Source: a virus
Taxonomy: Duplodnaviria > Heunggongvirae > Uroviricota > Caudoviricetes
DNA length: 22,933 nt
IMG/VR virus record: IMGVR_UViG_2609459824_000003
Span: 1 to 22,933 of that record
Direction: 5' to 3' (one strand)
The position numbers were made by a program, and so were the translations under genes. Position 1 is the first letter of the stretch; every line of letters starts with the position of its first letter. The notes beneath the pieces were generated by a model, which saw nothing but the letters and a program-made list of their open reading frames with translations, had not been told where the DNA came from and searched no databases. Positions 1 to 6,455 of the stretch are shown here, in pieces.

Positions 1-2
1 CC

Positions 3-1172
3 CTGAAGGTGGTGGCAGCCGATCCGAATACGGTGTCCGGTATCAAGTCCGTGGGTACGCTGATTGATGAGTTGTGGCTGTTTGGCAAGCAGTGCAAGGC
101 GGAGGACATGTTACGTGAAGCCATAGGCGGCCTTGCCTCCCGCCCGGAAGGGTTTGTGGTGTATACGACCACCCAGTCGAATGAACCGCCCGCCGGGGTG
201 TTCAGACAGAAACTGCAGTACGCCCGGGATGTGCGCGACGGCAAAATTCATGATCCGCACTTTCTGCCGGTGATATTTGAACACCCTCCTGAAATGGTGG
301 AAAGCGGGGCTAACCTGCTGATGGAAAACCTCGCCATGGTCAATCCGAATCTCGGCTATTCAGTGGATGAGGCCTTTCTGTACCGGGAGTACCGTAAAGC
401 CCGGGAAGCCGGTGAAGAGACATTCCGGGGGTTTATGTCAAAACACGCCAATGTGGAAATTGGTCTTGCCCTGCGCTCTGACCGCTGGGCGGGGGCTGAT
501 TTCTGGGAAGAGCAGGGCCGTTGTATCAGCCTGGACGATATCCTGCGTCGTGCTGATGTGGTGACGGTGGGGATTGACGGCGGAGGGCTGGATGATCTGC
601 TGGGGATGTATGTGATTGGGCGTGACCGGGAGACCCGCGAATGGCTGGGCTGGGGCCATGCCTGGGCGCATGAAACCGCGGTGGTCCGACGGAAGAGCGA
701 GGCGTCCCGGTTTCAGGATCTTGTTGCCTGTGGAGATATGACCATTGTCCGGCGTGTCGGGGATGACACGGCGGAAGTGGCGGAATATGTGCGTCGCATT
801 CATGAGGCTGAGTTACTGGACCATATCGGTATTGACCCGTCAGGGGTGGGGCAGATTCTGGATTCACTGGCGGAAGCCGGGATCCCCGACGGAATTGTGG
901 TGGGGATAAGCCAGGGCTGGAAACTGGGCGGGGCCATTAAAACCACCGAGCGCAAACTGGCTGAAGGGGTGCTGGTGCATGGTGACCAGCCCCTGATGGC
1001 CTGGTGTGTCGGCAATGCCCGGGTGGAGCCTAAAGGTAACGCCATTCTTATCACCAAACAGGCCAGTGGACGGGGAAAAATTGACCCGCTGATGGCGCTG
1101 TTCAATGCGGTCTCCCTGATGTCCCTTAACCCGGAACCGAAAAAGAAAGAATATGCGGTTTTTTTCATATAA
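3..1172 (+). CDS. Phage terminase large subunit, C-terminal portion (5' end lies outside the window)
   Basis: Frame is open from the window edge to TAA at 1170-1172. Translation contains the acidic nuclease-domain signature VGIDGGGLDDLLG and the C-terminal GRGKIDPLMALFNA motif typical of terminase large subunits. It sits directly upstream of the head genes. Confidence 0.8.
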   Translation: MKVVAADPNTVSGIKSVGTLIDELWLFGKQCKAEDMLREAIGGLASRPEGFVVYTTTQSNEPPAGVFRQKLQYARDVRDGKIHDPHFLPVIFEHPPEMVESGANLLMENLAMVNPNLGYSVDEAFLYREYRKAREAGEETFRGFMSKHANVEIGLALRSDRWAGADFWEEQGRCISLDDILRRADVVTVGIDGGGLDDLLGMYVIGRDRETREWLGWGHAWAHETAVVRRKSEASRFQDLVACGDMTIVRRVGDDTAEVAEYVRRIHEAELLDHIGIDPSGVGQILDSLAEAGIPDGIVVGISQGWKLGGAIKTTERKLAEGVLVHGDQPLMAWCVGNARVEPKGNAILITKQASGRGKIDPLMALFNAVSLMSLNPEPKKKEYAVFFI

Positions 1173-1198
1173 CCCTGTTCACACTGTAACCATCACGA

Positions 1199-1219
1199 AC
1201 CGCTCCGGCGGTTTTTTTA
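1199..1219 (+). terminator. Intrinsic-terminator-like hairpin between terminase and capsid genes
   Basis: ACCGC (1199-1203), loop TCCG, GCGGT (1208-1212), followed by TTTTTTT (1213-1219). A strong RBS AGGAGG (1225-1230) and the next start codon follow immediately. Confidence 0.55.
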
Positions 1220-1235
1220 TTTTCAGGAGGCTGAT

Positions 1236-3173
1236 GTGACTCTTAAACGGGCCTGTTCCCTGCTGACGGTGAAATCCTTCAGTGAGGATGAACGGGTGAT
1301 CACCGGGATTGCGTCAACGCCTTCTCCGGATCGGGATGGTGACATCCTGGAGCCGGAGGGCGCGGAGTTTGGCAGTGCGATCCCGTTTCTCTGGCAGCAT
1401 GACCATTCCCGCCCGGTGGGGCAGTGTACGGTGCGCCGGGTCAGCGAAGGGCTGGAAATCACGGCAACACTGGTGAAGCCCGTACCGGATATGCCGTCGC
1501 AACTGGCTGCCCGGCTGGATGAGGTCTGGGCGGCCATTAAGACCGGGCTGGTCAGGGGGCTGTCCGTGGGCTTCCGTCCCCATGAATACACCTTTCTGGA
1601 CGGAGGCGGACTGCATTTTCTGCGCTGGGAACTGATGGAGGTGTCTGCCGTCACCGTGCCCGCGAATGCGGAATGCACCATCCGGACCATTAAATCTTAC
1701 GACCGCCCGTTTTCTGCCGCGTCCGGCAACCGGAAACCGGTGGTGAAAATCGCATCTTCTGCCGGCGCTGCGGCACAGTCAACAACCGTTTTTCATAAGG
1801 AAAAGACCATAATGAATATTGGCGAACAGATTAAAAGTTTTGAAAACAAGCGTGCAGCGCTGGCAGCCTCCCTTGAGGAGGTCATGACCAAAGCCGCAGA
1901 GGAAGGGCGCACGCTGGATGTGGAGGAGGAAGAGCATTACGACAACACCGCAGCGGAAATCCGTCAGGTGGATGCGCACCTGAAGCGCCTGCGTGAACTG
2001 GAAGCCGGTAAGGCCGCCACGGCGCAGCCGGTGAAACAGGCCGGTAACGGGAATGTGGCCGCGGTGGCTTCTGCGCCGGTGATCCGTGTGGAGCAGAAAC
2101 TGGATAAGGGGATTGGCTTCGCCCGCTTTGCCAAATCGCTGGCTGCGGCTAAAGGCGTCCGATCTGAAGCCCTGGAAGTGGCCCGTCGTCAGTATCCGGA
2201 TGACAGTCGTCTGCATCATGTCCTGAAATCGGCAGTGGGCGCGGGGACCACCACGGATCCGCAGTGGGCAGGCAGCCTGTCTGAATATCAGGAATACGCA
2301 CAGGACTTTATTGATTACCTGCGTCCGCAGACCATTATCGGGCGATTTGGTCAGGGCGGGATCCCTGCACTTCGTCAGGTGCCATTCAATATCCGTGTGC
2401 ACGCCCAGGTGTCCGGCGGTGCTGCCGGCTGGGTGGGTGAGGGTAAGGCAAAACCCCTGACGAAGTTTGATTTTGAATCCATCACCTTCAGTCATGCGAA
2501 GGTGTCGGCCATTGCGGTACTGACGGAAGAATTGATCCGTTTTTCCAGTCCGGCTGCTGATGCACTGGTCCGTAATGCGCTGGCGGAAGCGGTGGTGGCG
2601 CGTCTGGATACAGACTTTGTGGACCCGAAAAAAGCCGCAGTGGCAGATGTCTCCCCGGCGTCCATCACCCATGATGTGAAGGGCACGGCATCAACCGGTA
2701 ACCCGGATGCGGATGCAGAGGCTGCGTTTGGACAGTTTGTGGCAGCAAACCTGCAGCCCACCGGTGCGGTCTGGCTGATGTCCAGCACCAATGCCCTGGC
2801 ACTGTCCATGCGTAAAAATGCGCTGGGTCAGAAGGAATACCCGGACATGACCCTGCTGGGTGGCTCCTTCCAGGGGCTGCCGGTGATTGTCTCCCAGTAC
2901 GTGGGTGACCAGCTGGTGCTGGTGAATGCCCCGGATATTTATCTGGCGGATGACGGCGGCGTGGCAGTGGATATGTCCCGCGAGGCATCACTGGAAATGC
3001 AGTCTGAGCCGACCGGCGACAGTACCACGCCGTCCCCGGTGGAGCTGGTTTCCATGTTCCAGACAGGCAGCGTGGCCATCCGTGCGGAGCGCTGGATCAA
3101 CTGGCGTCGTCGCCGTACTGCGGCGGTGGCGGTGATCACCGGAGTGAACTACGGCAGTGCGTCCGGCGGCTGA
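1236..3173 (+). CDS. Fused prohead protease (HK97 gp4/S78-like) - scaffold (delta-domain-like coiled coil) - major capsid protein (HK97 fold)
   Basis: Continuous 645-codon ORF starting at GTG 1236, 5 nt after AGGAGG. The N-terminal ~165 aa carry prohead-protease motifs (GIASTPSPDRDGDIL...PFLWQHDHSRPVG...GLSVGF...EVSAVTVPAN). An in-frame ATG at 1812 preceded by AAGGAAAAG starts a coiled-coil segment (MNIGEQIKSFENKRAALAASLEEV...) followed by a capsid-like body. Confidence 0.8.
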   Translation: MTLKRACSLLTVKSFSEDERVITGIASTPSPDRDGDILEPEGAEFGSAIPFLWQHDHSRPVGQCTVRRVSEGLEITATLVKPVPDMPSQLAARLDEVWAAIKTGLVRGLSVGFRPHEYTFLDGGGLHFLRWELMEVSAVTVPANAECTIRTIKSYDRPFSAASGNRKPVVKIASSAGAAAQSTTVFHKEKTIMNIGEQIKSFENKRAALAASLEEVMTKAAEEGRTLDVEEEEHYDNTAAEIRQVDAHLKRLRELEAGKAATAQPVKQAGNGNVAAVASAPVIRVEQKLDKGIGFARFAKSLAAAKGVRSEALEVARRQYPDDSRLHHVLKSAVGAGTTTDPQWAGSLSEYQEYAQDFIDYLRPQTIIGRFGQGGIPALRQVPFNIRVHAQVSGGAAGWVGEGKAKPLTKFDFESITFSHAKVSAIAVLTEELIRFSSPAADALVRNALAEAVVARLDTDFVDPKKAAVADVSPASITHDVKGTASTGNPDADAEAAFGQFVAANLQPTGAVWLMSSTNALALSMRKNALGQKEYPDMTLLGGSFQGLPVIVSQYVGDQLVLVNAPDIYLADDGGVAVDMSREASLEMQSEPTGDSTTPSPVELVSMFQTGSVAIRAERWINWRRRRTAAVAVITGVNYGSASGG

Positions 3174-3188
3174 GTCTGATAAGGAGGA

Positions 3189-3208
3189 CGGGAGGCGTGC
3201 GCCTCCCG
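3189..3208 (+). promoter_or_regulatory. GC-rich stem-loop downstream of the capsid gene (no U-tract)
   Basis: CGGGAGGC (3189-3196), loop GTGC, GCCTCCCG (3201-3208): perfect 8-bp stem 16 nt after the capsid stop codon. It is not followed by a T-run, so it is more likely an mRNA-stabilising or processing structure than an intrinsic terminator. Confidence 0.35.
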
Positions 3209-3217
3209 TAACAGGTT

Positions 3218-3439
3218 ATGGCAAAGATCCGATATCTGCAGGGCACGCATGATGCCCGGGCCGGGGATATCCGTGATGTGGCACAGCCGTGTGCGGAGGT
3301 GCTGGTTCGCCTGGGAAAGGCGGAGTACATCACGGTGCGACGTCCGGCAGGTCAGAAAAAGAAACGTGATGCGGAGCATGGCGAATGTGGAACCTTTTAC
3401 GGCGAACCCGAAAAAACCAGAAATCAGGACGTGACGTAA
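3218..3439 (+). CDS. Hypothetical small basic protein (73 aa) between capsid and portal genes
   Basis: ATG-initiated ORF filling the capsid-portal gap. It has no convincing Shine-Dalgarno and I recognise no family. Its TAA stop (3437-3439) overlaps a candidate GTG start (3436) in the portal frame. Confidence 0.25.
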   Translation: MAKIRYLQGTHDARAGDIRDVAQPCAEVLVRLGKAEYITVRRPAGQKKKRDAEHGECGTFYGEPEKTRNQDVT

Positions 3440-4749
3440 GAGAGGCGGGCTGGACCAGCCTGTTTCAGGCGGTGGCTGAGCCCTTTTCCGGCGCCTGGCA
3501 GCAGGGCGTGAAAGCCGATCCTGAAGCCGTCCTCTCCTTTCATGCGGTGTTTGCATGTATTTCGCTGATATCCCAGGATATCGCCAAAATGCGGCTGCGT
3601 CTTATGCAGACGGATGCGCATGGGATACGCAGGGAAACGCGCCGGGGGGATATTGCCCGCCTCTGTCGTCGTCCCAACGCCCAGCAGAACCGCATCCAGT
3701 TTTTTGAACTGTGGCTGAACGCCAAACTGCGTCATGGCAATACGGTGGTGCTGAAAATCCGTAATGCCCGGGGGCAGATCAAAGAACTGCGTATTCTGGA
3801 CTGGAGCCGGGTTGAACCTCTGGTGGCGGATGACGGCGAGGTGTTCTACCGCATCACGCCGGACCGGAACTGCGGGATCACGGAGGCGGTGACGGTGCCT
3901 GCCCGGGAAGTGATCCACGACCGGTTTAACTGTTTTTTTCATCCGCTTATAGGATTGCCGCCGGTGTATGCCGCCGGGCTGGCGGCCACGCAGGGGCATC
4001 ATATTCAGGAAAATTCGACGTCTTTTTTCAGAAATGGCGGCAGGCCGTCCGGGGTGATTGAGATCCCCGGCAGTATTACGGAAGAAAATGCGAAAAAACT
4101 GAAGAGCAACTGGGACAGCGGGTATACAGGCGAAAATGCGGGGAAAACGGCCATTCTGAGCAACGGGGCAAAATACAACCCCACGACGTTTTCACCTGTG
4201 GATGCGCAGACGGTGGAACAACTGAAGATGACCGCTGAAATTGTCTGTTCGGTGTTCCGTGTCCCGGCCTACAAGATTGGCGTGGGACAACCGCCTTCCA
4301 GTGACAACGTGGAGGCGCTGGAGCAGCAGTATTATTCCCAGTGCCTGCAGACGCTGATTGAGTCCATTGAACTGTTACTGGATGAGGCGCTGGAAACGGG
4401 GGAAAACGAGAGTACAGAATTTGATGTCACCACGCTGCTGAGAATGGACAGTGAGCGGCGCATGAAAACGCTGGGGGATGCGGTGAAAAATACGCTTCTC
4501 ACGCCCAATGAGGCCCGTAAACGGGAGAACCTGCCGCCCCTGGCCGGCGGTGATGCACTGTATCTTCAGCAGCAGAACTACAGTCTGGAGGCGCTGTCCC
4601 GTCGTGATGCCCGTGAGGATCCGTTCGCGTCTGCCGGGAAAACAGTTTCATCACAGCTGCCTGACGGCGCATCTGACGGTAATAAGGCAATCAGTGAAAC
4701 AGAGCATGATGCGGTGAAAGCGATGTTCAGGGGGATACTGAGAAAATGA
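3385..4749 (+). CDS. Phage portal protein (HK97-family)
   Basis: Translation has portal signatures: SFFRNGGRPSGVIEIPG, YTGENAGKTAILSNGAKY, TAEIVCSVFRVPAYKIGVG. The start is uncertain: first ATG at 3385, alternative GTG at 3436. The stop overlaps the next gene's start (ATGA at 4746-4749). Confidence 0.8.
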   Translation: MWNLLRRTRKNQKSGRDVREAGWTSLFQAVAEPFSGAWQQGVKADPEAVLSFHAVFACISLISQDIAKMRLRLMQTDAHGIRRETRRGDIARLCRRPNAQQNRIQFFELWLNAKLRHGNTVVLKIRNARGQIKELRILDWSRVEPLVADDGEVFYRITPDRNCGITEAVTVPAREVIHDRFNCFFHPLIGLPPVYAAGLAATQGHHIQENSTSFFRNGGRPSGVIEIPGSITEENAKKLKSNWDSGYTGENAGKTAILSNGAKYNPTTFSPVDAQTVEQLKMTAEIVCSVFRVPAYKIGVGQPPSSDNVEALEQQYYSQCLQTLIESIELLLDEALETGENESTEFDVTTLLRMDSERRMKTLGDAVKNTLLTPNEARKRENLPPLAGGDALYLQQQNYSLEALSRRDAREDPFASAGKTVSSQLPDGASDGNKAISETEHDAVKAMFRGILRK

Positions 4750-6455
4750 CGGAACGGGAACTGTCCATTATTCGTGCACTGGGAGAAGAATTCTCCACAG
4801 TGCTGGCGGATTTACAGCGCACATTTGAGGGGAAGATGGCCTCGCAGGCACAAGCGTTTGAAGAGAAACTGACTTCCCTGTCGGCGGTATTACAGAAGCA
4901 TGTGACGGTGGATGAGGTGCGTCCGGTTCTGCAGGCGATGGTGGATGACGCTGTGGGGGCCATTCCGGTACCGCGTGATGGTCGTGATTATGATCCGGAT
5001 GTACTGCAGCAGGCGGTGAATGATGCGGTCGCAAATATTCCGCAGCCGGCGGACGGTAAAAGTCTCACCCCGGATGATGTGCGTCCGATGCTTGAACAGA
5101 TGGTGAAGGAGGCTGTAAGCCATATCCCTGTTCCGCGCGACGGTCGTGACTATGATCCCGATGTTCTGCAGAAGGCGGTGAATGATGCGGTCGCAAATAT
5201 TCCGCAGCCGGGGGACGGTAAAAGTCTCACCCCGGATGATGTGCGTCCGATGCTTGAACAGATGGTGAAGGAGGCTGTAAGCCATATCCCTGTTCCGCGT
5301 GATGGTCGTGACTACGATCCGGAAGTACTGCAGAAGGCGGTGAATGATGCGGTCGCAAATATTCCGCAGCCGGGGGACGGTAAAAGTCTCACCCCGGATG
5401 ATGTGCGTCCGATGCTTGAACAGATGGTGAAGGAGGCTGTAAGCCATATCCCTGTTCCGCGCGACGGTCGTGACTATGATCCCGATGTTCTGCAGAAGGC
5501 GGTGAATGATGCGGTCGCAAATATTCCGCAGCCGGCGGACGGTAAAAGTCTCACCCCGGATGATGTGCGTCCGATGCTTGAACAGATGGTGAAGGAGGCT
5601 GTAAGCCATATCCCTGTTCCGCGCGACGGTCGTGACTATGATCCCGATGTTCTGCAGAAGGCGGTGAATGATGCGGTCGCAAATATTCCGCAGCCGGCGG
5701 ACGGTAAAAGTCTCACCCCGGATGATGTGCGTCCGATGCTTGAACAGATGGTGAAGGAGGCTGTAAGCCATATCCCTGTTCCGCGCGACGGTCGTGACTA
5801 TGATCCCGATGTTCTGCAGAAGGCGGTGAATGATGCGGTCGCAAATATTCCGCAGCCGGCAGACGGTAAAAGTCTCACCCCGGATGATGTGCGTCCGATG
5901 CTTGAACAGATGGTGAAGGAGGCGGTAAGCCATATTCATGTTCCGCGTGATGGTCGTGACTACGATCCGGATGTTCTGCAGAAGGCGGTTCTGGATGCGG
6001 TGAGTGCCCTGCCGGCTCCGCAGGACGGGCGTGATGCCACGGCTCTGGAAATACTCCCCGCCATTGACGATCAAAAATCCTTTCCCCGGGGCACGTATGC
6101 CACACACCAGGGCGGACTCTGGCGGGCGTATGAAAAAACGCACGGGATGCGGGGATGGGAATGCCTGGTTGACGGGGTGGCGGATATTGACGTCAGCATG
6201 ACGGGTGAGCGGTTGTTCTCTGTGGTGGTCCGGCAGAGCAGTGGCCAGCGTACGGAAAAAACATTTTCCCTGCCGGTGATGCTCTACCGCGGTGTGTTCA
6301 GAGCCGGTGAAACCTACCACCCCGGCGATACGGTGACGTGGGGGGGCTCGCTGTGGCACTGCAACAGTATGACCGAAGATAAACCCGGAGAAGCTCATTC
6401 ATCAGCCTGGACCCTGGCGGCAAAACGTGGGCGGGATGCAGGAGGCGGAAAATGA
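4746..6455 (+). CDS. Structural-module protein of unknown function with seven tandem 54-aa repeats
   Basis: 569-aa ORF translationally coupled to portal (ATGA overlap). It has a coiled-coil-like N-terminus, seven copies of a 54-aa unit (VRPMLEQMVKEAVSHIPVPRDGRDYDPDVLQKAVNDAVANIPQPADGKSLTPDD) and a ~140-aa Trp/Gly-rich C-terminal domain. Confidence 0.8.
   Translation: MTERELSIIRALGEEFSTVLADLQRTFEGKMASQAQAFEEKLTSLSAVLQKHVTVDEVRPVLQAMVDDAVGAIPVPRDGRDYDPDVLQQAVNDAVANIPQPADGKSLTPDDVRPMLEQMVKEAVSHIPVPRDGRDYDPDVLQKAVNDAVANIPQPGDGKSLTPDDVRPMLEQMVKEAVSHIPVPRDGRDYDPEVLQKAVNDAVANIPQPGDGKSLTPDDVRPMLEQMVKEAVSHIPVPRDGRDYDPDVLQKAVNDAVANIPQPADGKSLTPDDVRPMLEQMVKEAVSHIPVPRDGRDYDPDVLQKAVNDAVANIPQPADGKSLTPDDVRPMLEQMVKEAVSHIPVPRDGRDYDPDVLQKAVNDAVANIPQPADGKSLTPDDVRPMLEQMVKEAVSHIHVPRDGRDYDPDVLQKAVLDAVSALPAPQDGRDATALEILPAIDDQKSFPRGTYATHQGGLWRAYEKTHGMRGWECLVDGVADIDVSMTGERLFSVVVRQSSGQRTEKTFSLPVMLYRGVFRAGETYHPGDTVTWGGSLWHCNSMTEDKPGEAHSSAWTLAAKRGRDAGGGK
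4917..6050 (+). repeat. Tandem array of 7 x 162-bp direct repeats, in frame within the CDS
   Basis: The motif GTGCGTCC recurs at 4917, 5079, 5241, 5403, 5565, 5727 and 5889, exactly 162 bp apart. The six central copies are nearly identical at the nucleotide level; the first and last are diverged. Each unit is an internal duplication of a ~27-aa sub-repeat (IP-x-P-x-DG...PD-x-V...AV). Confidence 0.9.

What the first reader, a model, noticed from the sequence alone, without database searches (positions are those of the whole stretch)
1236..3173. Single gene encoding protease, scaffold and major capsid protein, with an internal RBS and start, in an unusual head gene order
Prohead protease, scaffold/delta domain and major capsid protein are read as one 645-codon frame. 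An in-frame ATG at 1812 preceded by AAGGAAAAG could also initiate a protease-free scaffold-capsid product, allowing a set protease-to-capsid ratio from one locus. The fusion gene also precedes the portal gene, the reverse of the canonical terminase-portal-protease-capsid order. Fused capsid genes of this kind have been described in some enterobacterial prophages, and to my recollection Gifsy-2 is one example.
Basis: partly seen in the sequence, partly recalled or inferred. Interest (0 to 1): 0.5.

Follow-up and report, generated by a model that had tools for sequence, protein, structure and literature searches.

The report
Fused protease-capsid gene with internal start
This is the well-known fused "prohead protease / major capsid protein" gene of long-tailed Shiga-toxin phages of E. 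coli; comparison with relatives indicates that it is probably read from two start sites, giving capsid subunits with and without the protease, but nobody has shown this experimentally.

Summary
GTG 1236 to stop 3173 is one clean 645-codon frame. It has an HK97-type protease domain, a variable linker, a helical scaffold region and an HK97-family capsid domain. It is not an artefact: 1,197 cluster representatives match at E<=1e-30, and the locus is 100% identical in sequenced E. coli phages. BP-4795 annotates it "major head protein/prohead protease". The order terminase, protease-capsid, portal holds across the whole lineage.

The internal start at ATG 1812 (Met193) has strong comparative support. 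Relatives with split genes start their capsid gene exactly there. 24 of 27 fused genes keep a Shine-Dalgarno core upstream, against a 6.5% background. Synonymous codons hold that motif: Gly is GGA in 18 of 20 cases, against 8% gene-wide. The site is among the least structured mRNA stretches in most genes.

The unrelated Clp-type Gifsy-2 family shows the same signature at Met221 (62 of 62).

The likely mechanism is two 3'-coterminal products (69 and 48 kDa) that set protease dosage, as in lambda C/Nu3 and herpesvirus UL26/UL26.5. No experiment confirms this.

Verdict: a known gene of a known kind. The nested-start reading is well supported and unannotated in every record I examined. Interest is modest.

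The parts
1197..1224 (+). Terminator-like GC hairpin (1197-1214) followed by a T-run, between terL and the fusion gene
   Evidence: Found by the consensus scan. A hairpin plus T-run at the same place is conserved in Enterobacterales, Proteus, Phlomobacter and Hydrocarboniphaga relatives, with covarying stems and variable loops. HK97 is annotated with a putative terminator just before its protease gene.
1225..1230 (+). Shine-Dalgarno AGGAGG for the full-length product (5-nt spacer to GTG 1236)
   Evidence: Read from the sequence. 23 of 23 relatives carry an SD core at the equivalent start.
1236..3173 (+). Full-length ORF: prohead protease, linker, scaffold (delta-like) and major capsid protein; 645 aa, 69.0 kDa
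   Evidence: phrog_617 matches full length (E 1e-261). Annotated 'putative major head protein/prohead protease' in BP-4795.
1296..1703 (+). HK97-type (S78) prohead protease domain, aa 21-156; candidate catalytic His55 (1398-1400, CAT) and Ser110 (1563-1565, TCC)
   Evidence: Pfam PF04586 at aa 48-152. BLASTP against HK97 gp4 aligns aa 21-156 with gp4 25-162 at 29% identity, E 4e-8; gp4 Ser114 aligns with Ser110 and gp4 His65 falls next to His55. H55 and S110 are invariant in alignment A1. The AF2 model shows a beta-rich domain at aa 6-138.
1704..1811 (+). Hypervariable, probably disordered linker (aa 157-192); A-rich and low in GC
   Evidence: This is the most variable stretch of alignment A1 and has indels. 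pLDDT is about 25-30. GC is 0.33 locally against 0.60 for the gene.
1798..1802 (+). Internal Shine-Dalgarno core AAGGA, 9 nt upstream of ATG 1812
   Evidence: 24 of 27 non-identical fused genes have an SD core 5-10 nt upstream of the equivalent start, against 6.5% of codon positions. The motif is held by synonymous choice: GGA is 18 of 20 Gly codons here against 8.3% gene-wide, and AAG-GAR is 6 of 6 Lys-Glu pairs here against 12 of 32 elsewhere. It is kept in 72 of 72 close E. coli copies.
1812..3173 (+). Nested in-frame ORF from Met193: scaffold plus capsid protein (453 aa, 48.2 kDa), the equivalent of HK97 gp5. Proposed second product.
   Evidence: Stand-alone capsid genes of Devosia (L028), Chelativorans (L029), Burkholderia phage vB_SBP33 and Rhizobium phage RHph_X2_26 begin at exactly this position. 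So do representatives P0251 and P0264, and P0200, P0229 and P0257 begin within 2-4 residues of it. TIGR01554, the HK97 capsid equivalog that includes the delta domain, matches aa 204-584 from profile position 3. The 60-nt window around 1812 folds at -5.8 kcal/mol against a gene mean of -18.2, z +2.5.
1812..2228 (+). Scaffold / delta-like region (aa 193 to about 331). The C-terminal boundary and the maturation cleavage site are only estimates.
   Evidence: Two long helices at aa 195-222 and 229-261 are the best-predicted part of the AF2 model, pLDDT about 77. There is a weak coiled-coil Pfam hit at aa 189-210. The boundary is guessed from a non-significant alignment to the HK97 gp5 N-arm.
2391..3140 (+). 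HK97-family major capsid domain (Pfam match aa 386-635)
   Evidence: PF05065 at 53.1 bits. TIGR01554 at 78.1 bits against a cutoff of 27.5. phrog_10 and phrog_617 are 'major head protein' families. There is a weak PDB sequence hit to the major capsid protein 9d9w.
9..1172 (+). Terminase large subunit (C-terminal part; the gene runs off the left edge of the window), immediately upstream and in the same reading frame
   Evidence: PF20441 TerL_nuclease. Annotated terL in the phage records.
3385..4749 (+). Portal protein gene, downstream of the capsid gene
   Evidence: PF04860, E 1.5e-81. The order terL, fusion, portal is conserved in all related loci.

Best explanation
The gene is a genuine tripartite head gene. 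Its parts are an HK97-type (S78) prohead serine protease, a disordered linker, a helical scaffold (delta-like) domain and an HK97-family major capsid protein. It is the standard capsid gene of a large head-module lineage (BP-4795/2851-type Stx phages, Pseudomonas phage PAJU2, many proteobacterial prophages) whose gene order is terL, protease-capsid, portal.

Shown: the single open frame, both domains, wide conservation of the fusion and of the gene order, and a conserved start codon, Shine-Dalgarno motif and unstructured mRNA at codon 193.

Inferred: ribosomes initiate at two sites. GTG 1236 gives a 69-kDa protease-scaffold-capsid chain. ATG 1812 gives a 48-kDa scaffold-capsid chain equivalent to HK97 gp5. 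Both co-assemble into procapsids through the shared capsid and scaffold parts. The minority of long chains carries the protease inside as a covalent passenger, so no separate targeting signal is needed. The ratio of the two initiation rates sets the protease dose. After assembly the protease (Ser110/His55) removes itself, the linker and the scaffold, leaving a mature capsid protein of roughly 310 aa.

This is the nested-gene logic of lambda C/Nu3 and herpesvirus UL26/UL26.5, extended so that the shared C-terminal part includes the capsid protein.
For: Fusion and domains. Breadth: 73-78% identical full-length proteins across Enterobacterales; 12,577 hits, 1,197 at E<=1e-30, most of the top 150 being 630-680 aa fusions; full-length fusions in Alphaproteobacteria at 41-51% identity.

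Internal start:
(a) Split-gene relatives start their capsid gene exactly at the Met193 equivalent and have their own SD.
(b) A start codon is present at that position in all 27 non-identical fused genes, and an SD core lies upstream in 24 of 27, against a 6.5% background. The true start scores 23 of 23. Other conserved Met codons score 1/27, 1/26, 0/22, 12/27 and 3/27.
(c) At least eight different peptide and codon solutions (KEK, KGN, KGK, QGK, QEG, KEA, TGN, QEV) yield the motif. GGA is 18 of 20 Gly codons here against 8.3% gene-wide, and AAG-GAR is 6 of 6 here against 12 of 32 elsewhere.
(d) 121 of 145 distant full-length representatives have Met in the aligned columns. Most of the rest have Val or a Met a few residues upstream.
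(e) The site ranks in the 0.2-2% least structured 60-nt windows in 23 of the 27 genes; mean z over all 27 is +2.35.
(f) 72 of 72 close E. coli copies keep it.
(g) Convergence: in the unrelated Clp-type Gifsy-2 family, Met221 has an SD in 62 of 62, against 0-1 of 62 at 14 other conserved Met columns. The SD-forming Glu codon is GAG in 62 of 62, against 41% gene-wide. Structure z is +2.6.

Precedents: lambda C/Nu3 (Shaw & Murialdo 1980, cited in PMC8508860) and UL26/UL26.5 (PMC4498786).
Against: There is no direct evidence of initiation at 1812. I found no ribosome profiling, N-terminal proteomics or gel data for these phages, and I could not read the Gifsy-2, PAJU2 or Duda 2013 papers. The sequences are phylogenetically related, so the counts are not independent events. 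A Lys/Asn/Thr-rich disordered linker would by itself lower GC and mRNA structure. AAGGA with a 9-nt spacer is only a moderate SD (duplex energy near the 10th percentile of the gene background). In four alphaproteobacterial genes the structure signal is weak: L023 and L024 have z about 0.8, L025 and L026 about 1.5. Three of 27 genes lack a core SD by my definition. Autoproteolysis alone could in principle yield protease-free subunits after assembly. The catalytic-residue assignment and the cleavage site rest on my recollection of HK97 biochemistry and on weak alignments. The AF2 model is poor, mean pLDDT 42.
Confidence: 0.7

Rival explanations
1. Only the full-length 69-kDa polyprotein is made. 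Every capsid subunit enters the procapsid carrying its own protease, and all protease-free capsid protein arises by autoproteolysis. The SD and ATG at codon 193 are an evolutionary relic of formerly separate protease and capsid genes, or a by-product of linker composition.
For: Split-gene relatives exist, so a relic is conceivable. HK97 gp4 and gp5 are separated by only 2 nt, so fusion is one small indel away. The linker is rich in Lys, Gly and Glu, which favours AAGGA-like strings. By rough volume estimate (my inference, not computed with a tool), 415 copies of a ~36-kDa internal domain could still fit a T=7 procapsid. Published descriptions of tripartite genes (PMC7302621, PMC5513430, PMC13595954) do not mention an internal start.
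Against: A relic should have decayed. The linker is otherwise hypervariable with indels, yet the start codon and the SD persist from 100% down to about 40% identity. Synonymous sites are fixed on rare codons that create the SD: GGA in 18 of 20 against 8.3%. An unrelated fusion family shows the same fixation: GAG in 62 of 62 against 41%. Composition cannot explain synonymous choice.
Confidence: 0.2
2. The conserved internal SD-like motif acts as a translational pause site and not as an initiation site. It would slow ribosomes between the protease domain and the scaffold domain to aid co-translational folding. Met193 would be conserved for structural reasons.
For: The motif sits exactly at a domain boundary, after a disordered linker. 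SD-like pausing inside genes has been proposed for E. coli (my own knowledge; the effect is disputed).
Against: A pause model does not require an adjacent start codon at SD-appropriate spacing, yet one is present in all 27 genes (GTG replaces ATG in one lineage). It also does not predict a minimum in mRNA structure. Capsid genes of split-gene relatives do initiate at this codon.
Confidence: 0.07
3. The fusion is an artefact, either a sequencing or assembly error or a decaying prophage pseudogene that joins two genes.
For: None found. A few truncated or aberrant variants exist in databases (P0007, P0008, P0089; the 1079-aa P0001).
Against: The DNA is identical in independently sequenced phages and in hundreds of complete genomes. 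The fused length is conserved across orders and classes of bacteria. Inducible, plaque-forming phages carry it, for example BP-4795, 2851 and PAJU2.
Confidence: 0.01

Closest known systems
BP-4795 / 2851 / YYZ-2008-type long-tailed Stx phages (genus Marienburgvirus) and identical E. coli prophages
   Same: The same gene at 98-100% DNA identity, with the same neighbours and order. It is annotated 'putative major head protein/prohead protease'.
   Different: Nothing in the sequence differs materially. None of the records I examined annotates a nested start at codon 193.
Pseudomonas phage PAJU2 ORF003 ('prohead protease fused capsid protein')
   Same: A full-length homologue at 48% identity, with the same order: terminase, fused gene, small ORFs, portal, hypothetical, adaptor.
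   Different: A different host and a diverged sequence. Its record calls it a 'structural protein', but I could not read the paper to learn the mature N-terminus.
HK97 gp4 (protease) plus gp5 (delta domain and capsid protein)
   Same: The protease domain is homologous to gp4, with the catalytic Ser aligned. Residues 193-645 correspond to gp5 by the TIGR01554 match that starts at profile position 3. gp4 and gp5 are adjacent, 2 nt apart.
   Different: In HK97 they are two genes, they follow the portal gene, and the protease is targeted non-covalently. Here there is one frame placed before the portal. The window also has Gly in place of the family-conserved Asn that matches HK97's crosslinking Asn356.
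Gifsy-2 tripartite capsid gene (Effantin et al. 2010, Virology 402:355; cited in PMC12315714)
   Same: One ORF encodes protease, a central scaffold-like region and the capsid protein. A conserved internal SD and ATG lie just after the protease domain (Met221).
   Different: Not homologous. It has a Clp-type protease (PF00574) and a Phage_capsid_4 domain (PF25209), it occupies the canonical position after the portal, and it is not among the organisms listed for the phage-collection sequence searches.
Lambda C/Nu3 and herpesvirus UL26/UL26.5 nested genes
   Same: A long product carries the protease. A shorter, in-frame, 3'-coterminal product lacks it and is made from its own initiation signal, which sets a low protease-to-scaffold ratio (PMC4498786; Shaw & Murialdo 1980 via PMC8508860).
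   Different: There the shared part is scaffold only, and the capsid protein is a separate gene. Herpesviruses use a separate promoter, not an internal ribosome-binding site. Here the shared part includes the capsid protein, and use of the second start is unproven.
Protease-scaffold-capsid fusions of small actinobacteriophages and of Lactococcus phage Nocturne116
   Same: The same tripartite architecture, recognised as a recurring theme (PMC7302621, PMC5513430). In Nocturne116 the mature capsid N-terminus is at residue 243 of the fusion, seen by cryo-EM (PMC13595954).
   Different: Hosts and sequences are unrelated. No sequence match was found or tested here. Those papers do not discuss an internal start.

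Membership tests
HK97-type prohead protease (Pfam Peptidase_S78, PF04586) | Sequence match to the family profile above the curated threshold | tested here: met
   PF04586 at 34.7 bits against a cutoff of 21, aa 48-152. phrog_80 'head maturation protease', E 1.9e-41. The stricter NCBI equivalog TIGR01543 is below its cutoff, 46.5 against 59.
HK97-type prohead protease (Pfam Peptidase_S78, PF04586) | Catalytic Ser and His conserved (HK97 gp4 Ser114 and His65; my own knowledge of Duda et al. 2013) | tested here: met
   gp4 Ser114 (GMSVGF) aligns with Ser110 (GLSVGF). gp4 His65 falls one column from the invariant His55 (WQHD). Both are invariant in A1. The identity of the catalytic residues is from memory; the paper could not be read.
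HK97-type prohead protease (Pfam Peptidase_S78, PF04586) | Herpesvirus-protease-like fold | tested here: inconclusive
   The AF2 model has mean pLDDT 42. The protease region scores 50-73 and is beta-rich, but the model is not good enough for a fold search.
HK97-family major capsid protein (PF05065 / TIGR01554) | Sequence match above the curated thresholds | tested here: met
   PF05065 at 53.1 bits against 24.2. TIGR01554 at 78.1 bits against 27.5, aa 204-584.
HK97-family major capsid protein (PF05065 / TIGR01554) | N-terminal delta/scaffold domain fused to the capsid domain and removed by the protease | tested here: inconclusive
   A helical region at aa 195-261 is predicted, and the profile match starts at profile position 3. 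The cleavage site could not be placed: hhalign against gp5 is not significant.
HK97-family major capsid protein (PF05065 / TIGR01554) | Lys-Asn isopeptide 'chainmail' residues (HK97 K169, N356, E363; my own knowledge). This is a feature of HK97 itself and is not required of all family members. | tested here: not met
   The family conserves K406, N611 and E618 with the N-x6-E spacing (130, 124 and 129 of 151 sequences). The window and all close E. coli copies have Gly611. The correspondence to HK97 rests on motif similarity only.
Tripartite protease-scaffold-capsid genes (architectural class; Gifsy-2, Nocturne116, small actinophages) | One ORF with an N-terminal protease, a central scaffold-like region and a C-terminal HK97-fold capsid domain | tested here: met
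Gifsy-2 capsid gene family (homology) | Clp-type protease domain and Phage_capsid_4 domain; position after the portal gene | tested here: not met
   Gifsy-2 has PF00574 and PF25209 and follows the portal. The window protein has PF04586 and PF05065 and precedes the portal.
NCBIfam NF045541 'prohead protease/major capsid protein fusion protein' | Score above the curated cutoff | tested here: not met
   54 bits against a cutoff of 525. It is a different fusion family.
Nested in-frame protease/scaffold gene pairs (lambda C/Nu3, herpesvirus UL26/UL26.5) | Internal in-frame start with its own initiation signals, giving a 3'-coterminal product that lacks the protease | tested here: met
   ATG 1812, AAGGA 9 nt upstream and open mRNA are conserved, with synonymous-site support. 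These are sequence signals only.
Nested in-frame protease/scaffold gene pairs (lambda C/Nu3, herpesvirus UL26/UL26.5) | Both products demonstrated in infected cells, with a defined ratio | not testable with these tools
   No expression or proteomic data were found.
PHROG phrog_617 (major head protein) | Full-length profile match | tested here: met
   E 1e-261; aa 1-639 match profile positions 7-626 of 626.

The most novel reading that the evidence does not exclude
Tripartite protease-scaffold-capsid genes are in general nested gene pairs and not simple polyproteins. A conserved internal ribosome-binding site at the protease/scaffold junction has been kept, or evolved convergently, in at least two unrelated fusion families: the S78 type here and the Clp type of Gifsy-2. 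It sets the protease-to-capsid ratio translationally. That would explain how such fusions avoid over-packing procapsids with protease, and why lineages switch easily between fused and split genes: the protease-free capsid product is made either way.
Probability: 0.5. Interest if true: 0.5.

Novelty: new member of a known kind. Interest (0 to 1): 0.35.

Why it matters
The gene itself is ordinary. It is the capsid gene of very common E. coli prophages, including many Stx1- and Stx2-converting phages, and is already annotated as a protease/capsid fusion.

The new element is the comparative evidence that it hides a second, unannotated start site. If that start is used, current annotation misses the most abundant virion protein precursor of these phages. 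It would also give a simple answer to how fused capsid genes dose their protease, and the same logic would apply to an unrelated fusion family.

The hypothesis is directly testable with one protease-dead construct and two point mutations. Knowing that residues 193-645 may be a natural stand-alone assembly unit is also practical information for anyone expressing these capsids, for example as nanocontainers or for structural work.

Tried and rejected
1. A second internal start at ATG 1884 (Met217), preceded by GAGGAGG. Rejected: the SD occurs in only 1 of 27 relatives and the spacer is only 2 nt.
2. A hidden frameshift or stop, or a programmed frameshift. Rejected: frame 0 is clean and the other frames are full of stops.
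3. A sequencing artefact. Rejected.
4. Structure route. AF2 on a 14-sequence alignment gave mean pLDDT 42, so I ran no fold search. The PDB sequence search gave only one weak capsid hit.
5. Placing the maturation cleavage site by BLASTP or hhalign against HK97 gp5. Not significant, so the 331/332 boundary is only a guess.
6. Rfam on both strands of 1-5000: no hits. Sigma-70 promoter scan of 900-3600: none. So there is no sign of an internal promoter of the UL26.5 type.
7. Long antisense ORFs, such as 1779..2672 on the minus strand. I treated these as the usual by-product of a GC-rich coding strand and did not test them.
8. The viral-contig scan for more diversity returned only copies at 96-100% identity.
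9. Literature. No paper in the library mentions internal initiation in a protease-capsid fusion. Effantin 2010 and Duda 2013 were not available, and I did not locate the PAJU2 paper.
10. My first duplex-energy percentile metric for the SD was too coarse (about the 10th percentile). I replaced it with motif, spacing and synonymous-codon tests.
Full report
**1. Observation**

The window carries a single open frame from GTG 1236 to the stop at 3171-3173, 645 codons. Frame 0 has no stop between 1173 and 3170, while the other two forward frames each contain dozens of stops. There is therefore no concealed two-gene arrangement or frameshift. AGGAGG (1225-1230) lies 5 nt upstream of the GTG.

Pfam places Peptidase_S78 at aa 48-152 and Phage_capsid (PF05065) at aa 386-635, both above their gathering scores. 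The whole protein matches one full-length PHROG family, phrog_617 'major head protein' (E 1e-261). ATG 1812-1814 is in frame (codon 193) and follows AAGGAAAAG. The gene sits between terL (9..1172) and the portal gene (3385..4749).

**2. Not an artefact, and not new as a gene**

The 2.2-kb segment is 100% identical in several sequenced E. coli phages. It is 98-99.8% identical in the long-tailed Stx phages 2851, YYZ-2008 and BP-4795, where it is annotated 'putative major head protein/prohead protease'. It occurs in 1,255 of 5,426 complete E. coli genomes, in up to 7 copies per genome.

Full-length homologues of 643-650 aa at 73-78% identity occur in Salmonella, Enterobacter, Klebsiella, Serratia, Pantoea and others. 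An exhaustive search of 1.84 billion cluster representatives gave 12,577 hits, 1,197 of them at E<=1e-30. Most of the best 150 are 630-680 aa fusions. Genome loci show intact fusions in Proteus, Hydrocarboniphaga and several Alphaproteobacteria at 41-51% identity.

Pseudomonas phage PAJU2 ORF003 (48% identity) is annotated 'prohead protease fused capsid protein'.

**3. Anatomy**

- Residues 21-156 align with HK97 gp4 (29% identity, E 4e-8). gp4 Ser114 falls on Ser110, and gp4 His65 falls next to the invariant His55. The catalytic roles of those gp4 residues are from my memory of Duda et al. 2013, which I could not open.
- Residues about 157-192 are the most variable part of the protein and contain indels. 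They are predicted to be disordered.
- From residue 195, two long helices (195-222 and 229-261) are the most confident part of an otherwise poor AlphaFold model (mean pLDDT 42).
- The HK97 capsid equivalog TIGR01554, whose profile includes the delta domain, matches aa 204-584 from profile position 3. Residues 193-645 are therefore the counterpart of HK97 gp5.
- In HK97 itself, gp4 ends 2 nt before gp5 starts.
- The scaffold/capsid boundary and the maturation site could not be placed reliably.

**4. Gene order**

The order terL, protease-capsid, (small ORF), portal, a further conserved ORF, connector is found in BP-4795, in PAJU2, in every related genomic locus, and in relatives whose protease and capsid genes are separate, such as Burkholderia phage vB_SBP33. 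It is the reverse of the HK97 order. It is an old, stable property of this lineage.

**5. The internal start**

This is the part of the finding that public annotation does not settle. Five lines of comparative evidence converge.

(i) In Devosia (L028) and Chelativorans (L029) the frame closes after 209-211 codons. A separate 458-460 aa capsid gene begins MSKIAEQI..., the exact equivalent of Met193 (MNIGEQI...), and each has its own SD. The annotated capsid genes of Burkholderia phage vB_SBP33 and Rhizobium phage RHph_X2_26 align from the same residue. Two stand-alone representatives (P0251, P0264) also start there, and three more (P0200, P0229, P0257) start within 2-4 residues.

(ii) All 27 non-identical fused genes have a start codon at that position (ATG; GTG in Hydrocarboniphaga). 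The SD comparison is as follows:

| Site | Genes with an SD core 5-10 nt upstream |
|---|---|
| Met193 equivalent | 24 of 27 |
| All codon positions (background) | 6.5% |
| True gene start | 23 of 23 |
| Met217 | 1 of 27 |
| Met515 | 1 of 26 |
| Met580 | 0 of 22 |
| Met588 | 12 of 27 |
| Met607 | 3 of 27 |

(iii) The peptide encoded by the motif varies (KEK, KGN, KGK, QGK, QEG, KEA, TGN, QEV), but the nucleotides do not. Of the Gly codons in the 8 codons upstream, 18 of 20 are GGA, against 8.3% gene-wide. Lys-Glu pairs there are AAG-GAR in 6 of 6 cases, against 12 of 32 elsewhere. Amino-acid composition cannot produce this.

(iv) 121 of 145 distant full-length representatives have Met in the aligned columns. 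Most of the others have Val or a Met a few residues upstream.

(v) The 60-nt window around the site ranks in the 0.2-2% least structured windows in 23 of the 27 genes. Mean z over all 27 is +2.35, and the window itself has -5.8 against a gene mean of -18.2 kcal/mol. The signal is weaker in four alphaproteobacterial genes (4.7-23%).

In addition, all 72 close E. coli copies examined keep the motif and the ATG. The other candidate, ATG 1884, is not conserved as a start and is rejected.

**6. Convergence in an unrelated family**

Its protease is Clp-type, its capsid domain belongs to another Pfam family, and it lies after the portal gene. It is an analogue and not a relative.

In 62 distinct members of that family (60-100% identity), Met221, just after the Clp domain, is invariant and has an SD core upstream in 62 of 62. 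At 14 of the other 15 conserved Met columns the count is 0-1 of 62. The upstream peptide is conserved there, so the codon test matters. The SD-forming Glu codon is GAG in 62 of 62, across 21 distinct nucleotide contexts. GAG is 41% of Glu codons gene-wide and 25% of first codons in comparable Glu-[Glu/Asp] pairs. The site is also unusually unstructured (mean z +2.6). Two unrelated tripartite capsid genes thus carry the same signature.

**7. Mechanism**

Shown: the architecture, its conservation, and a conserved translation-initiation signature at codon 193.

Inferred: two 3'-coterminal products are made, of 69.0 and 48.2 kDa. They co-assemble, and the long chains deliver the protease into the procapsid. 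The relative initiation rates set the protease dose. The long form starts with GTG behind a strong SD, and the short form starts with ATG behind a moderate SD in open RNA. The protease then removes itself, the linker and the scaffold.

This is the logic of lambda C/Nu3 (Shaw & Murialdo 1980, cited in PMC8508860) and of herpesvirus UL26/UL26.5 (PMC4498786). I put about 0.7 on actual use of the internal start.

The main rival is that only the polyprotein is made and the signals are relics (about 0.2). It is hard to reconcile with the synonymous-site fixation in two families. A pause-site role (about 0.07) does not explain the adjacent start codon.

**8. Comparison with what is known**

Protease-capsid and protease-scaffold-capsid fusions are documented in:
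- Gifsy-2 (Effantin 2010, cited in PMC12315714)
- many small actinobacteriophages (PMC5513430, PMC7302621)
- Lactococcus phage Nocturne116, where cryo-EM places the mature N-terminus at residue 243 of the fusion (PMC13595954)
- a separate curated NCBI family, NF045541, of which this protein is not a member

None of the papers I could read mentions an internal start. I could not read the Gifsy-2, PAJU2 or Duda 2013 papers, so the idea may already have been raised there.

**9. Verdict**

The gene and its order are already known and very common. The nested start is a well-supported, unannotated and testable inference that fits a known kind of arrangement. Interest is modest (0.35).

Noticed in passing
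window 3066-3068 (codon 611, GGC): The family conserves Lys406, Asn611 and Glu618 (K in 130, N in 124, E in 129 of 151 sequences), with the N-x6-E spacing of HK97's chainmail crosslink residues K169/N356/E363 (from memory). The window, BP-4795 and all 80 close viral-contig copies have Gly611 instead, so this E. coli lineage may have lost capsid crosslinking. The correspondence to HK97 rests on motif similarity; hhalign was not significant.
   Followed up: partly
L123 (Gifsy-2) 23131-23133, codon 221 of the gene at 22471-24561; loci L124-L203: The unrelated Clp-type tripartite capsid gene family has an invariant Met221 just after the protease domain. An SD core lies upstream in 62 of 62, held by a frozen GAG codon (62 of 62 against 41% gene-wide), and the local mRNA is open. 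This suggests a nested start there too.
   Followed up: partly
window 1197-1224: A GC-rich hairpin plus T-run (terminator-like) lies directly upstream of the capsid gene's SD. It is conserved in Enterobacterales, Proteus, Phlomobacter and Hydrocarboniphaga relatives, with covarying stems. HK97 has a putative terminator at the analogous place before its protease gene. Its role in a late operon under antitermination is unclear.
   Followed up: partly
window 4746-6455 (tandem repeat at 4971-5989): The ORF downstream of the portal overlaps its stop (ATGA). It contains 6.3 copies of a 162-bp (54-aa) tandem repeat at 96% match. The BP-4795 copy is 324 nt shorter, so copy number varies. The conserved C-terminal part is present in all related loci. 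phrog_2271 'portal protein' (859 positions) spans the portal plus this ORF. There is no convincing Pfam or NCBIfam assignment, and the function is unknown.
   Followed up: partly
window 3218-3439: A 73-aa ORF (phrog_829, unknown function) lies between the capsid and portal genes and overlaps the annotated portal start (3385) by 55 nt in another frame. It is annotated in BP-4795 and conserved at 43-58% identity in most Enterobacterales relatives (32-34% in two).
   Followed up: no
window 1234-1239: A minimal start-stop ORF (ATG TGA) overlaps the GTG start codon of the capsid gene (gctgATGTGAct), behind the same SD. It could compete with or modulate initiation of the long product. It is present in 77 of 78 close copies, one of which has a variant just upstream. 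Relatives use ATG in a different context.
   Followed up: no
window 9-3173; proteins P0001, P0123, P0132: terL and the capsid gene are in the same reading frame, separated by a single stop codon (TAA 1170-1172). Databases hold proteins of about 1,080-1,094 aa that join a terminase-like N-terminal part to the fusion protein: P0001 at 100% identity with PF03354, and P0123 and P0132 at 47-54% identity. These are probably read-through calls or mutations. I did not examine them.
   Followed up: no
L028 6609-6614 and L029 6619-6628: In Devosia and Chelativorans relatives the protease and capsid genes are split by a stop codon and a 2-4 nt frame offset, while sister alphaproteobacterial prophages are fused. 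The lineage therefore switches between fused and split states through very small changes at this junction.
   Followed up: partly
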